Virus record (IMG/VR): IMGVR_UViG_3300005842_000001
Coordinates: 8,806-72,805 of that record
DNA length: 64,000 nt
From: a virus
Reading direction: 5' to 3' (one strand)
The notes under the pieces were generated by a model. That model made no database searches and was not told where the DNA came from. It worked only from the letters and a program-made list of their open reading frames with translations. A program made the position numbers and the translations under genes. The stretch's first letter is position 1; every line of letters starts with the position of its first letter. Shown piece after piece: positions 42,866 to 62,327 of the stretch.

Positions 42866-42871
42866 AAACTT

Positions 42872-42943
42872 CGCGGGGTGGACCAGCGGTAGGTCGTCGG
42901 GTTCATAACCCGAAGGTCGTGAGTTCGATTCTCACCCCCGCAA
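42872..42943 (+). tRNA. initiator tRNA-fMet(CAT), CCA not encoded
   Basis: CGCGGGG...TCGGG-TTCATAA-CCCGA...GTGAG-TTCGATT-CTCAC-CCCCGCA-A; C1:A72 mismatch and three G-C pairs in the anticodon stem. Confidence 0.92.
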
Positions 42944-42955
42944 TTTTGGTGAGCC

Positions 42956-54558: not shown

Positions 54559-55294
54559 TCTGGTATCACTCGACAAAGAGCAAGAGGAGAAAGATGCTGC
54601 CATAGCGTCTGCTACCGAAGAGCTTCACAAGTTCTCTGAAGCTGATCTTGAAGGCGATGAGCTATTTCGAGTGAAGTTCAAACACAAGAAACAACTCTTG
54701 CAGCGAACGAAGCGCGCCATGGACGTAGCCAAGAGCAAATGGGAGAAGCTCAAGAAAGATCGCAATCAGTTGATCGATGATCTGATTGAACTCGACAAGG
54801 GTTCGCTGGAAGATTCGTTGCCACTGATCGTGCAAAGCAAGTTGACGAAAGACCCTGACAACGCCTGGAAGGATGTGCCAGTCTCGCATCTCAAACAACA
54901 TGGGCTGGCAGAGTCGATCATCGAACATTTTCAGACTCACGGCATCGACACACTCGGCAAGGTCGAAGAGTTCAGAAAAAAGCACGAGGTCAGCACTCTC
55001 GACAACATCACTGAGACGATGGAAAAGAAGTTCGACGCTGCACGAGATGAGTTTCTTGAAGCCTACAACTCTTTCCTGACCGGCGAAGAGGAAGGGGATG
55101 AAGCTGAAGCGGAGAAGAAGGAACTCACCATCGACGATCTGAAGCTGTCAGAAGACGTGATCGACAAGCTGAAAGCTGAAGGCATCGCCAGCGTCAAAGA
55201 CATGACCGAGTATCTCAAGAAACACGGTCAAGACGAACTCAAGAAGATGCTCGGTTCCCGTTCATTTGAGAAACTCAAGGAAGCGATCAAGTAA
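54467..55294 (+). CDS. coiled-coil protein with two HhH/alpha-CTD-like repeats
   Basis: VPVSHLKQHGL...HGIDTLGKV and LTIDDLKLS...LKAEGIASVKDM; GGAG upstream. Confidence 0.6.
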   Translation: MSSKKAKPAKVDQHTEKLTRKMKIIRSLQADLVSLDKEQEEKDAAIASATEELHKFSEADLEGDELFRVKFKHKKQLLQRTKRAMDVAKSKWEKLKKDRNQLIDDLIELDKGSLEDSLPLIVQSKLTKDPDNAWKDVPVSHLKQHGLAESIIEHFQTHGIDTLGKVEEFRKKHEVSTLDNITETMEKKFDAARDEFLEAYNSFLTGEEEGDEAEAEKKELTIDDLKLSEDVIDKLKAEGIASVKDMTEYLKKHGQDELKKMLGSRSFEKLKEAIK

Positions 55295-55295
55295 C

Positions 55296-56117
55296 ATGAC
55301 AAACAATCGTAGGGCGATGTTGTATTGCGGCGATGCTGAGCATCTGCCCTACCCCGATAAATCTGTTGACCTTGTGTTTGGTAGCCCGCCATACACTGAT
55401 GCCCGCAAACTTGCGGGCATGACGGTCTATAAGTGTGAGCAGTGGATTGAATGGATGCTCAGAGTCACTAAGGAAGCGTGTCGAGTCAGTCGAGGTCTGG
55501 TCGTCTGGGTAGTCGCTGGCAATTCTCGCAAGTGGAAGTACCAGCCAGCGCCAGAGGGACTGCTCTATCGCTGGTACGCTCAAGGCGGCGTGGCGTGGTG
55601 TCCTGCTTACTGGTACGCATCTGCTCGAAACATTGGCAGCGGCGGGCCTCAGTGGTTGCGGCGTGATGTTGAATACTGTCTAGCGTTCACTGACAAGCAA
55701 GGGCCGATACCATTTGCTGACAACAAAGCGAACGGAGCGCCATGCGTGTACAAGCCGGGTGGCGAGTTCAGCAATAGAGAGCAGTCAGGCAAGCGAACGA
55801 ACGAAGGTAAAAAAGGCAAGAAAGCATACACGCCGCCGAAGATCGCCAACCCTGGAAATCTATTGCACATTAACGTAGGCGGCGGTCATCTCGGTAGTGA
55901 GCTTGCTCACAAGAATGAAGCACCGTTCCCAGAATCGCTGGCTGATTTCTTCATCAAGCATCTTGTACCGCCGAACGGAGTTGTATGCGATCCCTTTGTG
56001 GGATCGGGAACCACGATCATTTCAGCACTGAAGAATGGTAGACGAGCGATAGGAGTTGACATACGACAGTCACAGATCGATCTTTGTCAAGAAAGGCTGG
56101 CGAAGTATGGAACCTAG
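55296..56117 (+). CDS. DNA methyltransferase, N4/N6 beta class (SPPY suggests N4-cytosine)
   Basis: DLVFGSPPY, APFPE.L, VCDPFVGSGTT. Confidence 0.9.
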   Translation: MTNNRRAMLYCGDAEHLPYPDKSVDLVFGSPPYTDARKLAGMTVYKCEQWIEWMLRVTKEACRVSRGLVVWVVAGNSRKWKYQPAPEGLLYRWYAQGGVAWCPAYWYASARNIGSGGPQWLRRDVEYCLAFTDKQGPIPFADNKANGAPCVYKPGGEFSNREQSGKRTNEGKKGKKAYTPPKIANPGNLLHINVGGGHLGSELAHKNEAPFPESLADFFIKHLVPPNGVVCDPFVGSGTTIISALKNGRRAIGVDIRQSQIDLCQERLAKYGT

Positions 56118-56205
56118 AATCATAGCTCTGATCTTCATCATGTCCATCGGGGTACTTTGGTTTTTCATTTACAACTTCTCTAAGATGCCGCCACCACGAT
56201 TATGA
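56107..56205 (+). CDS. 32-aa single-TM peptide
   Basis: MEPRIIALIFIMSIGVLWFFIYNF...; overlaps both neighbours. Confidence 0.4.
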   Translation: MEPRIIALIFIMSIGVLWFFIYNFSKMPPPRL

Positions 56206-56657
56206 TCAGCAAGACATACAAAGCATGCGGACACACGGTAGAAGACACTCAGAGGCCACCGCTTCGCTGTCCGATCTGCAAGCTGATGAATAGTGAAGTG
56301 AGGTCGTCACAGCGCACCACGATCAACTTGCCGCCTGAAGACGAGCTAGCTAGTCAGATCGAGCATGCTGAAGAGTTCAAAGACCTACGGCCGCTACGCC
56401 AATACAAGTTCGCTGAATATCACGGAAGGAAGTTTGCTTTTGATTTCTGTTGGCCCCAGTCAATGGTGGCAGTCGAGGTAGATGGTGGAACAACCAAGAA
56501 GGGCGGCGGGCGTCACAATCGAGCGAAGGGCTATCGTAAAGACACTGAGAAGCTCAACCTAGCTGGACAAATGGGATGGACTGTCTACCGTTATGTGAGT
56601 CAAGATATATATAACGGCACGGCCCTCAAAGACCTCAAGAGGATATTTGCACAATGA
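56202..56657 (+). CDS. DUF559/Vsr-like PD-(D/E)xK nuclease (possible resolvase)
   Basis: RKFAFDFCWP...VAVEVDGG...GGRHNR..GY.KD.EK.N.A...GW. Confidence 0.8.
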   Translation: MISKTYKACGHTVEDTQRPPLRCPICKLMNSEVRSSQRTTINLPPEDELASQIEHAEEFKDLRPLRQYKFAEYHGRKFAFDFCWPQSMVAVEVDGGTTKKGGGRHNRAKGYRKDTEKLNLAGQMGWTVYRYVSQDIYNGTALKDLKRIFAQ

Positions 56658-57181
56658 ACGAAGCAAACGAACTCAGTCACATAGAAGAAGGTCTACAGCA
56701 GTTCGCTGTAGAAATCGACACTATTCAACTTGATCCCGCCAATGCCAGAAAGCACAACGAAAAGAACTTGGCGGCTATCCGTGGTTCACTCAGCGCATAT
56801 AAGCAACGTAAGCTGGTGATCGTCAACAAAAACACTAATTGCATTGAGGCTGGCAACGGCACATATACAGCAGGCAAGGCGCTCGGATGGAAGTGGATCG
56901 CCGTTCTCTTTGTCGATGATGATCCAATGACTGCCACTGGTTTTGCCATTGCAGACAATCGCACAAGTGAATTGGGAACCTGGGATCAGGAAGTTCTATC
57001 TCAGCAACTTGATGCGATGGCGTTGCCGGGCATAGAAGAACTTGACGAGATGTTCACCGATCTAATTGAAGCTCACCAGACTCCTGACTTCACCCCAGCC
57101 CCTTTGAGCGATCAAGGCAAGTTGGACGAAATGAAAATGATCCATTGTCCTGAGTGCGGTCATGAGTTCCACAACAAATAG
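56654..57181 (+). CDS. ParB-like N-domain protein with C-terminal CPxCG
   Basis: DPANARKH, IEAGNG...A..LGW, AIADNRTSEL..WD, CPECGHEF. Confidence 0.85.
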   Translation: MNEANELSHIEEGLQQFAVEIDTIQLDPANARKHNEKNLAAIRGSLSAYKQRKLVIVNKNTNCIEAGNGTYTAGKALGWKWIAVLFVDDDPMTATGFAIADNRTSELGTWDQEVLSQQLDAMALPGIEELDEMFTDLIEAHQTPDFTPAPLSDQGKLDEMKMIHCPECGHEFHNK

Positions 57182-57773
57182 TCTGAAGCTCGATTGGTGC
57201 AGCTATCAAGCGGCCAAGCATGCTGTTCTGAACTGGCACTATTCAAAAGCGATGCCCAACGCCAAGCTAGCGCGAATTGGTGTCTGGGAAGATGGCAAGT
57301 TCATCGGGGTGATTCTCTACGGGCGAGGGGCCACTTCAGCACTCGTGCAACGCTTTGGACTCAAGATGGAAGAAGGATGCGAGTTGGTTCGCATCGCCAT
57401 CAAAAGTCACAAAACACCAATTTCTCGAATGGTGGCGATTGCAAACAAAATGCTGAAGAAAGCATTTCCTAAGTTGAGGCTCATTGTGTCATTTGCAGAC
57501 ACGAGCCAAGGGCATCATGGCGGCATCTATCAGGCGGGCGGCTGGGTGTATTCGGGAATGTCCACACCAGCAAAGGAATATATAGTCGGCAAGAAACGCT
57601 ATCACGGCAGATCATTCAGAAACAGCCCCTACAAAAACATGGAAGGCCACCCTTCTGTTAAAATCGTGATGGGGAGTGCCAAGCATCGCTACTTAATGGC
57701 CCTGGACGATCAAATGAAAGCTCATATAGAAAAGACGAGGAAGCCATATCCGAAACGCGCGCCTGTAGTGTAA
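57162..57773 (+). CDS. Mom-like GNAT DNA-adenine modification protein
   Basis: WHYSK, GVWE.GKFIG...YG, ELVRIA, IVSFAD..QGH.G.IYQA.GW.Y.G, KHRY, PYPK. Confidence 0.8.
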   Translation: MSSTTNSLKLDWCSYQAAKHAVLNWHYSKAMPNAKLARIGVWEDGKFIGVILYGRGATSALVQRFGLKMEEGCELVRIAIKSHKTPISRMVAIANKMLKKAFPKLRLIVSFADTSQGHHGGIYQAGGWVYSGMSTPAKEYIVGKKRYHGRSFRNSPYKNMEGHPSVKIVMGSAKHRYLMALDDQMKAHIEKTRKPYPKRAPVV

Positions 57774-57829
57774 TGAAGCACGGCGAGCCCACCAGCCCGC
57801 AAGCGACGATCAACCCCGATCCAGGCGCT
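57759..57829 (+). ncRNA. tRNA-Gly-like RNA (non-canonical) overlapping the end of the Mom-like gene
   Basis: Acceptor GCGCCTG/CAGGCGC with U73, U8-A9, D stem GTGT/GCAC, anticodon arm GCGAGC/GCCCGC around CCACCA, degenerate T arm. Confidence 0.65.
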
Positions 57830-57832
57830 CTC

Positions 57833-57866
57833 AGCACCCCGCCAACTATGGCGGGGTGCTTCATTT
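57833..57866 (+). terminator. terminator-like hairpin
   Basis: AGCACCCCGCCA-acta-TGGCGGGGTGCT. Confidence 0.7.
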
Positions 57867-57894
57867 CTATCGTCTGAAATAATTTCAGTAAAAT

Positions 57895-57956
57895 CCAAGA
57901 TTCTGGCTTGCACCTGCCAGCCAGTAGAGTATATATATATTATGTCAGTAACAACG
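57895..57956 (+). repeat. 62-bp promoter repeat, copy 1
   Basis: CCAAGATTCTGGCTTGCACCTGCCAGCCAGTAGAGTATATATATATTATGTCAGTAACAACG, identical to 59404-59465. Confidence 0.9.
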
Positions 57957-57982
57957 CTGGCACAACGAGCCGGAGAAAGAAC

Positions 57983-58177
57983 ATGTCAGCCGCTGAAACT
58001 AACAGAAAACTGCTTGATTATGCGATCAATCACCTTACCAAGGCAGCGACTCATCTGAGACACGCCAAGATCATCAAAAATGAGTCATCGGTGTTTTCAG
58101 AAGAGATAGCCCGGAAAATTGAATCCATAGATGCCGATCTTGACTTTATCATTGACTACCTGACTACGCCAGAATAG
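57983..58177 (+). CDS. hypothetical protein
   Basis: GGAG upstream, just after the repeat. Confidence 0.6.
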   Translation: MSAAETNRKLLDYAINHLTKAATHLRHAKIIKNESSVFSEEIARKIESIDADLDFIIDYLTTPE

Positions 58178-58212
58178 CTTTCTCCCCTCATCTCTTCCAC
58201 AAGGATAGAAAC

Positions 58213-59352
58213 ATGCCAGCACTCGTCACAACATCCAAGAAGCAATCAGCCCTGCAACTCAAGTTCGCTGAGGCTGCTCAGATCATCAACAGCGCTCTGA
58301 TCGAGAGACACAACGAAGTCGAGCTAGCCCTAACTGGGCTGCTCGCTAATGAGCATGTCCTCTTTGTCGGCCTTCCCGGTACTGCCAAGTCAATGCTTCT
58401 TGATTCAATCATCCGATGGATCGGCTCATCTGAGCAAGCATTCAGCGAACTGCTCGGCAAGTTCACTACGCCAGAAAATGTGTTCGGGCCGATCAGCTTA
58501 TCAGGGATGAAGAAAGACGACTACCGCCGAGTAACGACGGGCTACCTGCCTTCTTGCCACTTTGCTTTCTTGGATGAAATCTTCAAAGCATCAAGCGCCA
58601 TCCTCAACACCATGCTCAAGGTTCTGAATGAGCGAACCTTTCGCAACGGGTCGATGGGTGTCACGAAATGCCCTCTCCGCTTCTGTGTTGCAGCATCGAA
58701 CGAATGGCCGGGCGGCGAAGGCCAGGACTCACTTGCTGCTCTCTTTGATCGCTTTGTGATCAGGAGCAAAGTTGCCCCTATCGCAACAATGAGTGGCATG
58801 GAGAAACTGCTCTTCAGCGACAACCTCACACCTGAGTTTAATGATCACCTGACTCTTGAGGAGCTTGATGATGCTCGTGCTGAAGTGACGGCACTGCCTT
58901 GGTCAGAAGACGCCAAAAAGGGCATCATCGATATCCTGATGAAGCTCAAGGGCGCTGGCATCATTCCTGGTGATCGACGGAAGAGAAAGTGCATCAACAT
59001 TGCTCGTGCCTATGCTTGGCTCAATGGTGCTGATCAAGTCGAGGTCGATCATCTGATGGTTCTGTCCAACGTGCTGTGGGACGATCCTATCGAGCAGCCA
59101 GCGAAGGCAGAAGAAATCATAGCTCAGATCGCCAACCCGCTGAAGTACGCTCTCAAGAGCAAGCTCCAAGAAGCCCACGGCATCATGTCTGCTTGCAACA
59201 CTTCAGACTATGCCGACAGTGTGACAGCTACTGCCAAGCTGACAGAGATACTGAAGGGGCTGAAGAACATGAAAGACAGCCCCCAGACTGTGCAAGCTGT
59301 CGAGCATGTTCAGTCACTGATCAGAGACATTAAGATAGCCCAGAACGTCTAA
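58213..59352 (+). CDS. MoxR/RavA-like AAA+ ATPase
   Basis: GLPGTAKS, TTPE.VFGP, FLDEIFKASSAILN, ASNE, ALFDRF, DRR. Confidence 0.9.
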   Translation: MPALVTTSKKQSALQLKFAEAAQIINSALIERHNEVELALTGLLANEHVLFVGLPGTAKSMLLDSIIRWIGSSEQAFSELLGKFTTPENVFGPISLSGMKKDDYRRVTTGYLPSCHFAFLDEIFKASSAILNTMLKVLNERTFRNGSMGVTKCPLRFCVAASNEWPGGEGQDSLAALFDRFVIRSKVAPIATMSGMEKLLFSDNLTPEFNDHLTLEELDDARAEVTALPWSEDAKKGIIDILMKLKGAGIIPGDRRKRKCINIARAYAWLNGADQVEVDHLMVLSNVLWDDPIEQPAKAEEIIAQIANPLKYALKSKLQEAHGIMSACNTSDYADSVTATAKLTEILKGLKNMKDSPQTVQAVEHVQSLIRDIKIAQNV

Positions 59353-59403: not shown

Positions 59404-59465
59404 CCAAGATTCTGGCTTGCACCTGCCAGCCAGTAGAGTATATATATATTATGTCAGTAACAACG
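59404..59465 (+). repeat. 62-bp promoter repeat, copy 2
   Basis: Identical to copy 1. Confidence 0.9.
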
Positions 59466-62223: not shown

Positions 62224-62272
62224 GGCTTGCACCTTCCTGCCAGTAGAGTATATATATATTATGTCAGTAACA
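62224..62272 (+). repeat. promoter repeat, copy 3 (slightly diverged)
   Basis: GGCTTGCACCTTCCTGCCAGTAGAGTATATATATATTATGTCAGTAACA. Confidence 0.85.
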
Positions 62273-62327
62273 GCGCTGACACAAACGAACGTGTCTCTTC
62301 ACGAACCTCAACACAGGAATACATGCC

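What the first reader, a model, noticed from the sequence alone, without database searches (positions are those of the whole stretch)
57162..57866. Mom-like DNA-modifying enzyme with a linked tRNA-Gly-like RNA
Seen: a cloverleaf (57759-57829) starts within the last codons of the Mom-like gene and is followed directly by a terminator hairpin. It keeps the bacterial tRNA-Gly identity elements (G1-C72, C2-G71, G3-C70, U73, CC in the anticodon loop) but lacks the D-loop GG, the TTC T-loop, a 7-nt anticodon loop and an encoded CCA. Established: Mu Mom makes N6-carbamoylmethyl-adenine, a glycinamide-like group. From memory (verify), glycyl-tRNA has been reported as the donor. Inference: a dedicated non-ribosomal glycine carrier for DNA hypermodification, analogous to the non-proteinogenic tRNA-Gly used by staphylococcal Fem enzymes.
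Basis: partly seen in the sequence, partly recalled or inferred. Interest (0 to 1): 0.85.

Follow-up and report, generated by a model that had tools for sequence, protein, structure and literature searches.

The report
Mom genes carry a tRNA-Gly mimic
A phage gene for a DNA-protecting enzyme that needs glycine-loaded tRNA ends in its own stripped-down look-alike of glycine tRNA, and the same pairing recurs in well over a hundred other phage sequences, which suggests that these viruses bring a private glycine carrier for modifying their DNA.

Summary
ORF 57162-57773 is a Mom-family enzyme (Pfam PF25680, E 7.8e-46). It keeps the equivalents of Mu Mom's essential R111 and S124. Bases 57759-57829 fold as a cloverleaf, followed by a 12-bp terminator.

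A covariance model built from 20 homologous loci, without the window, finds one hit in the 64-kb window, exactly there (35.8 bits, E 6e-7). The same element abuts the Mom domain in 43 of 48 viral loci and 78 of 80 metagenome loci. In the reverse test, 74 of 81 sites found by an RNA motif alone have a Mom ORF beside them, 14 with the RNA upstream of the gene.

All four stems covary. G1-C72, C2-G71, U73 and C35 never vary, and G3-C70 and C36 almost never. The Mom ORF reads through the element in all three frames, so the constraint is on the RNA.

U33, U8, the D/T-loop pair and often the D arm are lost. Mu Mom uses Gly-tRNAGly (PMC13219725).

Best reading, at 0.62: a dedicated, non-ribosomal glycine carrier. 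Expression and charging are untested. My literature searches found no report of it.

The parts
57162..57773 (+). Mom-family gene (203 aa), a GNAT-type N6-adenine glycyl (carbamoylmethyl) transferase. Its last four sense codons and the stop overlap the RNA element.
   Evidence: Pfam PF25680 at E 7.8e-46. PHROG 1384. PDB 8bv8 'Methylcarbamoylase mom' at E 2.3e-6. R77 and S88 align with Mu R111 and S124.
57759..57829 (+). tRNA-Gly-like RNA: positions 1-72 plus the discriminator U73 at 57829. No CCA is encoded.
   Evidence: Minimum-energy cloverleaf, z -3.15. Only R1 hit in the window, 35.8 bits, E 6.1e-7. Only R1 hit in the whole phage genome.
57759..57765 (+). Acceptor stem, 5' strand. It pairs with 57822-57828. 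G1, C2 and G3 are GlyRS identity positions.
   Evidence: These three pairs are invariant or nearly so in the family.
57768..57781 (+). D arm: a 4-bp stem and a 6-nt loop without GG. It contains the Mom stop codon (57771-57773).
57783..57800 (+). Anticodon-like arm: a 6-bp stem with one A.C mismatch and a 6-nt loop. C35 and C36 lie at 57792-57793 and A37 at 57794.
57805..57821 (+). T arm. By the family alignment it is a 4-bp stem with the family's bulged A at 57819. The single-sequence fold instead pairs 57808-57811 with 57818-57821.
   Evidence: CM alignment. Minimum-energy fold. The bulged A is present in 31 of 35 and 76 of 76 family members.
57822..57829 (+). Acceptor stem 3' strand (C70, G71, C72) and the discriminator U73.
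   Evidence: U73 is present in 35 of 35 and 76 of 76 members.
57833..57870 (+). Intrinsic terminator: a 12-bp hairpin (57833-57860) and a T-rich tail. It ends the DNA-modification operon 4 nt after U73.
56654..57181 (+). ParB-like nuclease-domain gene. It overlaps the Mom start by 20 nt. The same neighbour sits upstream of the Mom-like genes of phages Zartrosa, phiEf11 and Appa.
   Evidence: PHROG 620 at E 2.9e-24. Annotations.
55266..56657 (+). Upstream genes of the same + strand cluster: an N6/N4 DNA methyltransferase (55266-56117) and a DUF559/Vsr-like protein (56202-56657).
   Evidence: Pfam PF01555 at E 6.9e-22. The PF04480 match is weak, below its cut-off.

Best explanation
The 3' end of the Mom transcript is a specialised tRNA-Gly-like RNA that serves as a private glycine carrier for Mom.

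Proposed path. The DNA-modification operon is transcribed to the terminator at 57833-57870. The last roughly 71 nt fold into a cloverleaf. Host enzymes mature it: RNase P at G1 (57759), a 3' cut and trimming after U73 (57829), and CCA addition, which is needed here because CCA is not encoded. Host GlyRS charges it, because it keeps the bacterial tRNAGly identity set (G1-C72, C2-G71, G3-C70, U73, C35, C36). Mom then takes the glycyl group from its 3' end and puts it on N6 of adenine in phage dsDNA, where it rearranges to N6-carbamoylmethyl-adenine.

The RNA lacks the parts a decoding tRNA needs: U33, a 7-nt loop, U8, the G18G19/U55C56 elbow and a regular T stem. It should therefore be a poor substrate for EF-Tu and the ribosome. 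That would keep a glycine pool for DNA modification separate from translation, made in step with the enzyme.

Shown here: the Mom family assignment, the fold, its conservation and covariation, the invariant identity nucleotides, and the two-way genomic linkage with Mom.

Taken from the literature: Mom uses Gly-tRNAGly; the GlyRS identity set; U73 protects Gly-tRNAGly from DTD.

Inferred: expression as a separate RNA, maturation, charging, use by Mom, and exclusion from translation.
For: Premise. Mu Mom needs Gly-tRNAGly. All three E. coli isoacceptors work but Gly-tRNAAla does not, so tRNAGly-specific features matter (PMC13219725, sections 9 and 10).

Window. The enzyme is Mom family with both essential residues. 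The cloverleaf is at 57759-57829.

Linkage, Mom to RNA. R1 hits at the Mom domain end in 43 of 48 viral loci. The misses are one contig end, one partial match and three of a 38-40%-identity group. R1 hits in 78 of 80 metagenome loci, 75 of them starting within -4 to +7 nt of the end of the protein match.

Linkage, RNA to Mom. Of 81 sites found by an RNA-only motif, 74 have a Mom ORF on the same strand. It ends at or just before the element in 57. Two more are upstream but less tidy (one about 125 nt away, one cut by a contig end). One lies 1.3 kb upstream. In 14 it lies immediately downstream. The 7 sites without one each have under 830 nt of upstream contig. Seven of 7 downstream ORFs tested are Pfam Mom.

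RNA-level constraint. 89.5% of cells pair in a MAFFT alignment, against 37-44% when partners are slid. 17 of 21 pairs change on both sides. 0 of 500 shuffles reach the observed values. This is replicated on 76 distinct metagenome elements: 97.8% paired against 33-40% slid (that alignment is fitted to the model).

Coding frame. The ORF reads through the element in 39 of 45 and 71 of 77 loci. The 3' half is read in all three phases: 29/7/3 and 52/9/10 for phases 1/2/0.

Identity set. G1, C2, G71, C72, U73 and C35 are present in 35 of 35 and 76 of 76 elements. G3-C70 is present in 34 of 35 and 75 of 76, and C36 in 34 of 35 and 76 of 76. These are the GlyRS determinants listed in PMC7826273. U73 is in 231,855 of 232,109 bacterial tRNAGly and shields Gly-tRNAGly from DTD (PMC6097841).

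Loss of decoding features. U33 is present in only 12 of 35. A8 replaces U8 in 28 of 35 and 70 of 76. Position 55 is G in 20 of 35 and 66 of 76. 62 of 111 rows have no D arm. A 7-nt loop is predicted in 10 of 111. ARAGORN of 48. Rfam tRNA passes its threshold in 2 of 20.

Tandem double copies occur in 3 loci.
Against: There are no RNA data. No listed sequencing run holding this DNA is RNA, so expression, ends, CCA addition and charging are all unobserved.

The element is not needed for the chemistry. R1 finds none anywhere in the whole records of Mu, phiEf11, NotEvenPhaged and VSiP, and LP-124 has only its ordinary tRNA cluster about 33 kb from Mom. None lies within 1.5 kb of the Mom-like gene in 7 more cultured phages. 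Mu Mom ends at the PYPK motif, with no extension.

In most loci, and in the window, the element overlaps the open reading frame. RNase P cleavage at G1 would therefore cut the mom message before its stop codon.

The window's copy is among the weakest (35.8 bits). An ordinary phage tRNA-Gly scores 46.5 with the same model, so R1 by itself does not separate the two kinds. The window's copy also has an A.C mismatch, an ambiguous T arm and no encoded CCA.

Whether GlyRS accepts variants with 5- or 6-nt loops or without a D arm is untested.

The 97-98% pairing figures come from alignments fitted to the model. The unfitted figure is 89.5%.

Most read-through loci use one phase, so some selection on the peptide or against stop codons is not excluded.
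Confidence: 0.62

Rival explanations
1. It is an ordinary phage tRNA-Gly for translation. It sits beside Mom to top up the Gly-tRNAGly pool that Mom drains, or it simply lies there, and is partly decayed in some phages.
For: A minority look canonical. Microbacterium phage Appa has an annotated tRNA-Gly(ccc) 33 nt after its Mom-like gene, on the opposite strand. ARAGORN calls tRNA-Gly in L002, L028 and L033. 10 of 49 D-arm-bearing members keep both the D-loop GG and U55C56. R1 also scores an ordinary tRNA-Gly well.
Against: Most members cannot decode. A 7-nt loop is predicted in only 10 of 111 rows. U33 is present in 12 of 35. A34 is present in 16 of 35. 62 of 111 rows have no D arm. ARAGORN reports a two-base 'anticodon' in 9 of 14 upstream-type copies. 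Yet the GlyRS identity set stays invariant, which decay would not preserve. In the window the loop is 6 nt.
Confidence: 0.1
2. It is a cis-acting tRNA mimic, not a donor. It could be a binding site through which Mom or GlyRS controls the mom message, or a tRNA-shaped processing or stability signal at the end of the operon.
For: It lies inside or at the end of the mom message and directly before a terminator in the window. Translation runs through it in most loci.
Against: It also occurs immediately upstream of Mom in 14 of 81 sites, convergent in Appa, and as tandem doubles. A 3'-end stability or termination signal would not do that. C35 and C36 lie far from the acceptor end that Mom is thought to read (PMC13219725, discussion). 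Their invariance is best explained by charging by GlyRS.
Confidence: 0.12
3. The conserved thing is a C-terminal peptide of Mom (motif GG-x-x-PT-x-x-L-H/Q), and the RNA fold is a by-product.
For: In most read-through loci the 3' half is read in the same phase: 29 of 39 and 52 of 71. This gives a recurrent peptide motif.
Against: The same nucleotides are read in the two other phases in 10 of 39 and 19 of 71 loci. They lie after or across a stop codon in the window and in 5 other loci of the viral and cultured-phage set, plus 5 loci of the metagenome set. They lie upstream of the gene in 14 sites. Changes are compensatory in stems. Mu Mom, which is active, has no such tail.
Confidence: 0.04
4. 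It is a remnant of a host tRNA-Gly gene carried as a phage attachment site, or a non-functional relic in this particular phage.
For: Phages often integrate into tRNA genes and carry their 3' parts (general knowledge). The window's copy is a low-scoring member.
Against: It is a full-length cloverleaf, not a 3' fragment. The stems covary between phages. The family has its own marks that canonical tRNA models largely miss, namely the bulged A in the T stem and A8. The phage genome has direct terminal repeats and no tyrosine integrase match. The element is tied to Mom, not to an integrase.
Confidence: 0.04

Closest known systems
Phage Mu Mom with host Gly-tRNAGly (PMC13219725; PDB 8bv8)
   Same: Same enzyme family (PF25680; 8bv8). 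The essential Arg and Ser are conserved. The glycine donor is a tRNAGly-type RNA.
   Different: Mu encodes no such RNA. R1 gives no hit in the whole Mu genome, and its Mom ends at the PYPK motif. The paper describes Mom as scavenging host tRNA. It contains none of 'phage-encoded tRNA', 'tRNA-like' or 'neighborhood', and sections 9, 10 and 14, which I read, mention no linked RNA. Its supplements were not seen.
Non-proteinogenic tRNAGly isoacceptors of Staphylococcus aureus, used by FmhB/Fem transferases (PMC7826273)
   Same: Glycine carriers kept for a non-ribosomal aminoacyl-transferase. They retain the GlyRS identity set and deviate in the D and T arms. They are reported to interact poorly with EF-Tu and the ribosome.
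   Different: They are bacterial chromosomal genes of a lineage restricted to staphylococci. The acceptor substrate is a peptidoglycan precursor, not DNA. They are not fused to the enzyme's gene. The phage RNAs go much further in reduction: 5- or 6-nt loops, no D arm in many, and a bulged A in the T stem.
Ordinary phage-encoded tRNA genes (for example tRNA-Gly(ccc) of Microbacterium phage Appa, or the tRNA cluster of Listeria phage LP-124)
   Same: Phage-borne with a cloverleaf. Appa's tRNA-Gly also lies next to a Mom-like gene.
   Different: Those are detected by standard tRNA finders and have 7-nt loops. The Mom-linked family is mostly missed: ARAGORN finds 4 of 48, and Rfam tRNA passes its threshold in 2 of 20. 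It also overlaps a protein-coding frame.
Aminoacylatable tRNA-like structures at the 3' ends of plant RNA virus genomes (recalled, not checked here)
   Same: A tRNA mimic at the 3' end of a viral message that host synthetases may charge.
   Different: Those belong to RNA viruses. Their acceptor arm is built with a pseudoknot and serves replication or translation. Here the element is in a DNA phage, has a plain 7-bp acceptor stem, and has a proposed role as co-substrate of the adjacent enzyme.

Membership tests
Mom family (PF25680), tRNA-dependent N6-adenine glycyl/carbamoylmethyl transferase | Full-length match to the family profile above the curated cut-off | tested here: met
   156.7 bits against a cut-off of 27.1, covering profile positions 2-202 of 202. 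PHROG 1384.
Mom family (PF25680), tRNA-dependent N6-adenine glycyl/carbamoylmethyl transferase | Sequence relation to the solved Mu Mom structure | tested here: met
   8bv8_A 'Methylcarbamoylase mom', E 2.3e-6, residues 7-148. The fold itself was not modelled.
Mom family (PF25680), tRNA-dependent N6-adenine glycyl/carbamoylmethyl transferase | Catalytically essential Arg and Ser (Mu R111 and S124, per the abstract of PMC13219725) | tested here: met
   A pairwise alignment puts window R77 and S88 opposite Mu R111 and S124.
Mom family (PF25680), tRNA-dependent N6-adenine glycyl/carbamoylmethyl transferase | Makes N6-carbamoylmethyl-adenine from a glycyl-RNA donor | not testable with these tools
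   Needs biochemistry or LC-MS.
Canonical bacterial tRNA-Gly | Recognised by general tRNA detectors | tested here: not met
   ARAGORN finds only tRNA-Met at 42871-42944. Rfam RF00005 gives no match at E up to 10.
Canonical bacterial tRNA-Gly | Cloverleaf with a 7-bp acceptor stem | tested here: met
   Minimum-energy structure. Full-length alignment to R1.
Canonical bacterial tRNA-Gly | GlyRS identity set: G1-C72, C2-G71, (G3-C70), U73, C35, C36 (PMC7826273) | tested here: met
   All are present in the window. All are invariant or nearly so in the family.
Canonical bacterial tRNA-Gly | 7-nt anticodon loop with U33 | tested here: not met
   The loop is 6 nt and position 33 is C.
Canonical bacterial tRNA-Gly | G18G19 in the D loop and T54-U55-C56 in the T loop | tested here: not met
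   The D loop has no GG. By the CM alignment the T loop starts A-U-C and one stem position is missing.
Mom-linked tRNA-Gly-like RNA (family defined here by model R1) | Significant match to a model built without the window | tested here: met
   35.8 bits, E 6.1e-7, the only hit in the window.
Mom-linked tRNA-Gly-like RNA (family defined here by model R1) | Starts within a few nt of the end of the Mom domain (after the PYPK(R) motif) | tested here: met
   The window element starts directly after the Arg codon of PYPKR. 75 of 80 metagenome loci start within -4 to +7 nt of the end of the protein match.
Mom-linked tRNA-Gly-like RNA (family defined here by model R1) | Bulged A in the 3' strand of the T stem | tested here: inconclusive
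   Present by the CM alignment (A at 57819). The single-sequence fold prefers another 4-bp T stem. In the family the bulged A is in 31 of 35 and 76 of 76 members.
Staphylococcal non-proteinogenic tRNAGly | Member of the lineage restricted to staphylococci (PMC7826273 abstract) | not tested
   No staphylococcal sequences were compared. The source is a rhizosphere phage, so this is treated as a functional analogue only.
Staphylococcal non-proteinogenic tRNAGly | Weak binding to EF-Tu and the ribosome | not testable with these tools
   Inferred from the irregular T stem and loop. Needs binding assays.
Aminoacylatable viral 3' tRNA-like structure | Acceptor arm formed through a pseudoknot at the very 3' end of the RNA (recalled definition) | tested here: not met
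   The acceptor stem is formed by the 5' and 3' strands as in a tRNA, and a terminator follows.

The most novel reading that the evidence does not exclude
The mom message itself is the glycine donor. The tRNA-like 3' end would be trimmed to CCA and glycylated while still joined to the coding region, as in plant-virus tRNA-like ends. Each message would then deliver both the enzyme and its activated co-substrate. Ribosomes reading through the element would melt it, so translation and charging would alternate on one molecule. This would account for three things: the element overlaps the frame in about nine loci in ten, RNase P cleavage would otherwise cut the message before its stop codon, and one reading phase predominates. 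More broadly, it would mean that over 100 phage lineages encode a protein and its own aminoacyl-carrier RNA in the same nucleotides.
Probability: 0.12. Interest if true: 0.95.

Novelty: new variant of a known kind. Interest (0 to 1): 0.9.

Why it matters
Mom was shown only recently to use charged tRNAGly, and the published view is that it scavenges the host pool.

If this RNA is a glycine carrier, a large group of phages supplies its own. It would be the first virus-encoded aminoacyl carrier dedicated to a non-ribosomal reaction, and the first dedicated to DNA modification. It would also be written into the same nucleotides as the end of the enzyme's gene.

It would show how a phage can keep late DNA hypermodification from competing with translation. 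A carrier without a normal anticodon loop might also escape host defences that cut or deplete tRNAs, though that is speculation.

Practical consequences:
- The family is a candidate new RNA family that standard tRNA finders miss.
- The roughly 30-residue 'C-terminal tails' of many database Mom proteins are translations of this RNA.
- The RNA is a genomic marker for glycine-dependent Mom enzymes.
- The 62-73-nt variants without a D arm are natural minimal candidates for GlyRS substrates.

The idea is directly testable in cultured phages (Arthrobacter phage Zartrosa, Pseudanabaena phage Pan3).

Tried and rejected
Rfam scan of 57000-58300 at E up to 10: only four chance-level matches, none to tRNA.

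Nucleotide search of the phage collection with the gene and flank: only 65-77-nt matches inside the Mom gene, nothing over the RNA.

Genome-contig scan with the single protein: only 2 loci. One (L058, a planctomycete MAG contig) carries the same element as L008. The other is cut before the gene end.

Expression: the look-up of sequencing runs listed no RNA holder, only rhizosphere or soil DNA runs kept as contigs. Laying four of them (X3, X4, X5, X7) gave one contig across the element with no differences and nothing on RNA ends. This says nothing either way about expression.

Phage-borne helpers: no match in the phage genome to PF01743 (CCA-adding enzyme head domain) or PF00589 (tyrosine integrase).

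The attP/tRNA-fragment idea and the peptide-only idea were considered and rejected for the reasons given under the rivals.

R1 is not specific for the Mom-linked kind. It also hits ordinary tRNAs (LP-124 tRNA-Gly at 46.5 bits; S-SSM7 tRNA-Thr at 33.9 bits). I therefore rely on position, covariation and the family's own marks, not on the score.

Supplementary files of PMC13219725 and of the preprint were not opened. Their homologue alignments and gene-neighbourhood data could bear on the novelty claim.

None of the papers listed describes one.

Rows dropped from counts: L124 was left out of the frame count, because its hit follows a second tandem Mom gene. Only the 80 listed loci of the 120 or more motif stretches were examined. 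For 8 cultured phages only 1.5-kb flanks were searched.
Full report
WHAT IS IN THE WINDOW

The window is bases 8806-72805 of a 72,805-base virus record with direct terminal repeats, rated complete. It occurs in rhizosphere DNA runs.

On the + strand there is a DNA-modification cluster:
- an N6/N4 DNA methyltransferase (55266-56117);
- a DUF559/Vsr-like protein (56202-56657);
- a ParB-like nuclease-domain protein (56654-57181);
- ORF 57162-57773.

The last ORF is a Mom-family protein. It matches Pfam PF25680 at E 7.8e-46 over the whole profile, PHROG 1384, and the solved Mu Mom chain 8bv8 at E 2.3e-6. Aligned with Mu Mom, window R77 and S88 stand opposite R111 and S124. The abstract of PMC13219725 names these two as essential for catalysis. 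Mu Mom ends at its PYPK motif. The window protein ends five residues after the same motif.

THE RNA ELEMENT

Bases 57759-57829 fold on their own into a cloverleaf as the minimum-energy structure: -25.5 kcal/mol, 76% of the ensemble, z -3.15, and none of 200 shuffles as good.

The acceptor stem has seven Watson-Crick pairs and begins G-C-G. The base after it is U (57829). The D stem has 4 pairs with a 6-nt loop lacking GG. The anticodon-like arm is a 6-bp stem with one A.C mismatch and a 6-nt loop that contains CC followed by A. The T arm is irregular. CCA is not encoded.

The Mom stop codon lies in the D arm, so the two features share 15 nt. Four bases after the U comes a 12-bp G+C-rich hairpin with a T-rich tail.

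ARAGORN and Rfam do not report the element.

IS THE PREMISE TRUE?

Yes. Silva et al. (PMC13219725; abstract and sections 9, 10 and 14 read; earlier preprint 10.1101/2023.03.24.534169, passages read) show that Mu Mom transfers glycine from Gly-tRNAGly to N6 of adenine in dsDNA. The glycyl group then rearranges to the carbamoylmethyl form.

All three E. coli tRNAGly isoacceptors work. Gly-tRNAAla does not. The authors suggest that Mom reads the acceptor end and scavenges the host pool. The terms 'phage-encoded tRNA', 'tRNA-like' and 'neighborhood' do not occur in that paper.

COMPARATIVE TEST, FROM THE ENZYME TO THE RNA

A scan of viral contigs with the window protein gave 48 loci at 38-64% identity. 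In most, the ORF runs about 30 codons past the point where the window protein ends, with a recurrent motif (GG-x-x-PT-x-x-L-H/Q). In others a different motif appears, which is the same DNA read in another frame.

The underlying nucleotides are a T arm, an acceptor 3' strand ending C-G-C, then U and mostly CCA. A 7-bp stem beginning G-C-G closes this region directly after the PYPK(R) motif. ARAGORN calls a tRNA at exactly this place in 4 of 48 loci, three of them tRNA-Gly.

I aligned 20 full-length examples without the window (A1). On this MAFFT alignment:
- the cloverleaf pairs in 89.5% of cells, against 37-44% when the 3' partners are slid by 1-3 columns;
- 17 of 21 pairs show changes on both sides;
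- none of 500 shuffles reaches the observed values.

RNAalifold independently predicts the same cloverleaf and places a bulged A in the 3' strand of the T stem.

The covariance model R1 built from A1 gave these results:
- One hit in the 64-kb window, at 57759-57832 (35.8 bits, E 6.1e-7). It did not hit the phage's tRNA-Met.
- One hit in the whole phage genome.
- Hits in 43 of 48 viral loci, always at the Mom 3' end. The misses were L021 (contig end), L039 (partial match) and L043-L045 (a 38-40%-identity group whose ORF stops right after the motif). Thirteen distinct elements among the hits were not in the seed.

REPLICATION

A metagenome scan with an alignment of nine Mom domains (A4) returned 80 new loci. 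R1 hit 78 of them. In 75 the hit starts within -4 to +7 nt of the end of the protein match. Two lie 46 and 56 nt downstream, after a stop codon. One follows a second, tandem Mom gene. L141, a miss, carries a look-alike with C in place of the discriminator U. L150 is followed by another Mom gene. Three loci carry two elements in tandem.

On the 76 distinct sequences, 97.8% of cells pair against 33-40% when slid, and 17 of 21 pairs change on both sides. This alignment is fitted to the model, so it leans towards the structure.

REVERSE TEST, FROM THE RNA TO THE ENZYME

A motif made only of RNA features (T stem with the bulged A, the last acceptor bases, UCCA) matched at least 120 stretches of viral contigs. 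The 80 listed loci held 81 sites. A local profile search of all ORFs within 1.8 kb found a Mom ORF on the same strand at 74 of 81 sites:
- it ends at or just before the element in 57;
- it is upstream but less tidy in 2 (L187, with a gap of about 125 nt; L217, cut by the contig end);
- it lies 1.3 kb upstream in 1 (L180);
- it lies immediately downstream of the element in 14.

The seven sites without one each have under 830 nt of upstream contig. Seven of seven downstream ORFs tested are Pfam Mom above the cut-off. In L219 the N-terminus of a Mom gene runs straight into the T arm, apparently a deletion remnant.

So the RNA and the enzyme travel together in either gene order.

CULTURED PHAGES

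Of 15 records sampled across the 256 with a Mom-like match:
- Arthrobacter phage Zartrosa has an unannotated element overlapping the end of its annotated Mom-like CDS (54.4 bits).
- Pseudanabaena phage Pan3 has one inside the end of CDS Pan3_58 (31.3 bits).
- Microbacterium phage Appa has an annotated, canonical tRNA-Gly(ccc) 33 nt downstream on the opposite strand.

Mu, phiEf11, NotEvenPhaged and VSiP have none anywhere in their genomes. LP-124 has only its ordinary tRNA cluster, 33 kb away. Riggi, SerPounce, Stickynote, LeeroyJenkins, ICP1 and Vegas have none within 1.5 kb. S-SSM7 has an ordinary tRNA cluster without tRNA-Gly just upstream.

WHAT IS CONSERVED AND WHAT IS NOT

In 35 distinct elements of the first set, including the window, and in 76 of the second:
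- G1, C2, G71, C72, U73 and C35 are invariant.
- G3-C70 holds in 34 of 35 and 75 of 76. C36 holds in 34 of 35 and 76 of 76.
- Acceptor pairs 4-7 and every pair of the D and anticodon stems vary with compensation.

The invariant set is the set of glycylation determinants listed in PMC7826273 (G1-C72, the second pair, U73, C35, C36). U73 is found in 231,855 of 232,109 bacterial tRNAGly and protects Gly-tRNAGly from deacylation by DTD (PMC6097841).

Positions that a decoding tRNA needs are not kept:
- U33 is present in 12 of 35.
- Position 34 is A in 16 of 35.
- Position 8 is A in 28 of 35 and 70 of 76.
- Position 55 is G in 20 of 35 and 66 of 76.
- 62 of 111 rows have no D arm.
- A 7-nt loop is predicted in 10 of 111 (single-sequence folds, which may overstate closure of the loop).
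- ARAGORN gives a two-base 'anticodon' for 9 of 14 upstream-type copies.
- Rfam's tRNA model passes its threshold in 2 of 20 loci.

Among the 49 rows with a D arm, GG in the D loop goes with U55-C56 in the T loop. The counts are both 10, U55-C56 only 5, GG only 1, neither 33 (Fisher p 3.6e-6, not corrected for relatedness). That is what a tRNA-type elbow would produce.

The bulged A in the T stem is present in 31 of 35 and 76 of 76. It is the family's own mark.

RNA OR PEPTIDE?

The ORF reads through the element in 39 of 45 loci of the first set. It stops inside it in 6: the window, L028, L040, L041, L042 and Zartrosa. In the second set 71 of 77 read through, 3 stop inside, 2 stop before, and 1 contig ends.

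The discriminator base falls in codon phase 1, 2 or 0 in 29, 7 and 3 loci of the first set. In the second set the counts are 52 (phase 1), 10 (phase 0) and 9 (phase 2).

The same nucleotides are therefore conserved whatever they encode, and also when they lie upstream of the gene. The predominance of one phase remains unexplained. Some T-loop variants would give stop codons in another phase, but stops inside the element are evidently tolerated.

MECHANISM

The steps are set out under Best explanation.

The inference that the irregular T stem weakens EF-Tu binding rests on my recollection that EF-Tu reads T-stem pairs 49-65, 50-64 and 51-63. It was not checked here. The maturation steps (RNase P; 3' trimming, or RNase Z with CCA addition) are standard bacterial tRNA biology and were not tested. 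The phage has no CCA-adding enzyme match of its own.

A difficulty: 5' cleavage at G1 would separate the mom coding region from its stop codon in the window and in most relatives. Either each message is translated before it is processed, or the RNA is used while still attached. The second option is the novel case.

RIVALS

- An ordinary decoding tRNA-Gly fits a canonical minority, such as Appa, but not the family.
- A 3'-end stability or termination signal does not fit the upstream, convergent and tandem arrangements.
- A peptide constraint does not fit the three frames.
- An attachment-site remnant does not fit a full-length, covarying cloverleaf in a phage with terminal repeats and no integrase match.
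- A regulatory mimic that binds Mom is not excluded. It explains the invariance of C35 and C36 less well than charging by GlyRS does.

NOVELTY

Six literature searches and the passages read turned up no description of an RNA linked to Mom genes. Supplements were not available.

No Rfam family other than tRNA matches the element itself at E up to 1, apart from one sub-threshold antisense match in L047 (Plastid-ycf2, 34.2 bits against a gathering score of 65.7).

The nearest known system is the staphylococcal non-proteinogenic tRNAGly used by Fem transferases. It is an analogue in function only.

I rate this a new variant of a known kind: an aminoacyl-carrier tRNA reserved for a non-ribosomal transferase. 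It has three new traits. It is virus-encoded, it serves DNA modification, and it is written over the enzyme's own reading frame.

VERDICT

Confidence is 0.62 in the carrier model. Confidence is much higher, about 0.95, that this is a real, selected, tRNA-Gly-like RNA family tied to Mom.

Noticed in passing
window 57905-57955, 59414-59464, 62224-62274 (+): A 51-nt sequence occurs three times: twice exactly and once with 3 mismatches (0 expected by chance). It has an A+T-rich TATA-like core and each copy sits just upstream of a gene start. It looks like a phage-specific promoter or regulatory box. The first copy follows the terminator that ends the Mom operon.
   Followed up: partly
window 42871-42944 (+): The phage carries one canonical tRNA-Met (CAT). 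It is not hit by model R1.
   Followed up: no
window 58213-59352 (+): A MoxR-type AAA+ ATPase (Pfam bpMoxR at E 2.2e-47, AAA_5, AAA_lid_8) begins the next transcription unit after the Mom operon.
   Followed up: no
window 57773-57880 (+): A 35-codon ORF starts at an ATG that overlaps the Mom stop codon and runs through the RNA element and the terminator. It reads the element in the phase seen in a minority of homologues. It is probably not a gene.
   Followed up: no
L074 1285-1353 and 1360-1429; L078 1238-1306 and 1313-1382; L112 913-981 and 983-1050: Two tRNA-Gly-like elements lie in tandem after a single Mom gene.
   Followed up: no
L124 and L150 (metagenome loci): Two Mom-family genes lie in tandem. 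In L124 the RNA element follows the second gene, not the first.
   Followed up: partly
L141, about 1297-1370: An element-like sequence has C instead of U at the discriminator position, followed by CCA. R1 missed it at E 0.01. It is the only departure from U73 that I saw.
   Followed up: no
L219 (viral contig), around the motif site: The N-terminal codons of a Mom gene run directly into the T arm of the element, after a ParB-like gene. This looks like a deletion that removed most of Mom and the 5' half of the RNA.
   Followed up: no
L054 (Microbacterium phage Appa, MH153799 30320-30394, minus strand): An annotated, canonical tRNA-Gly(ccc) lies convergent to the Mom-like 'acetyltransferase' gp47 and 33 nt from it. 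It may represent the less specialised state of the pairing.
   Followed up: partly
L008 (viral contig) and L058 (MHXU01000101.1, planctomycete MAG): The same element, the only one with C at position 3 paired to G70, occurs on a contig binned with a planctomycete genome. That is a hint to the host of that phage.
   Followed up: no
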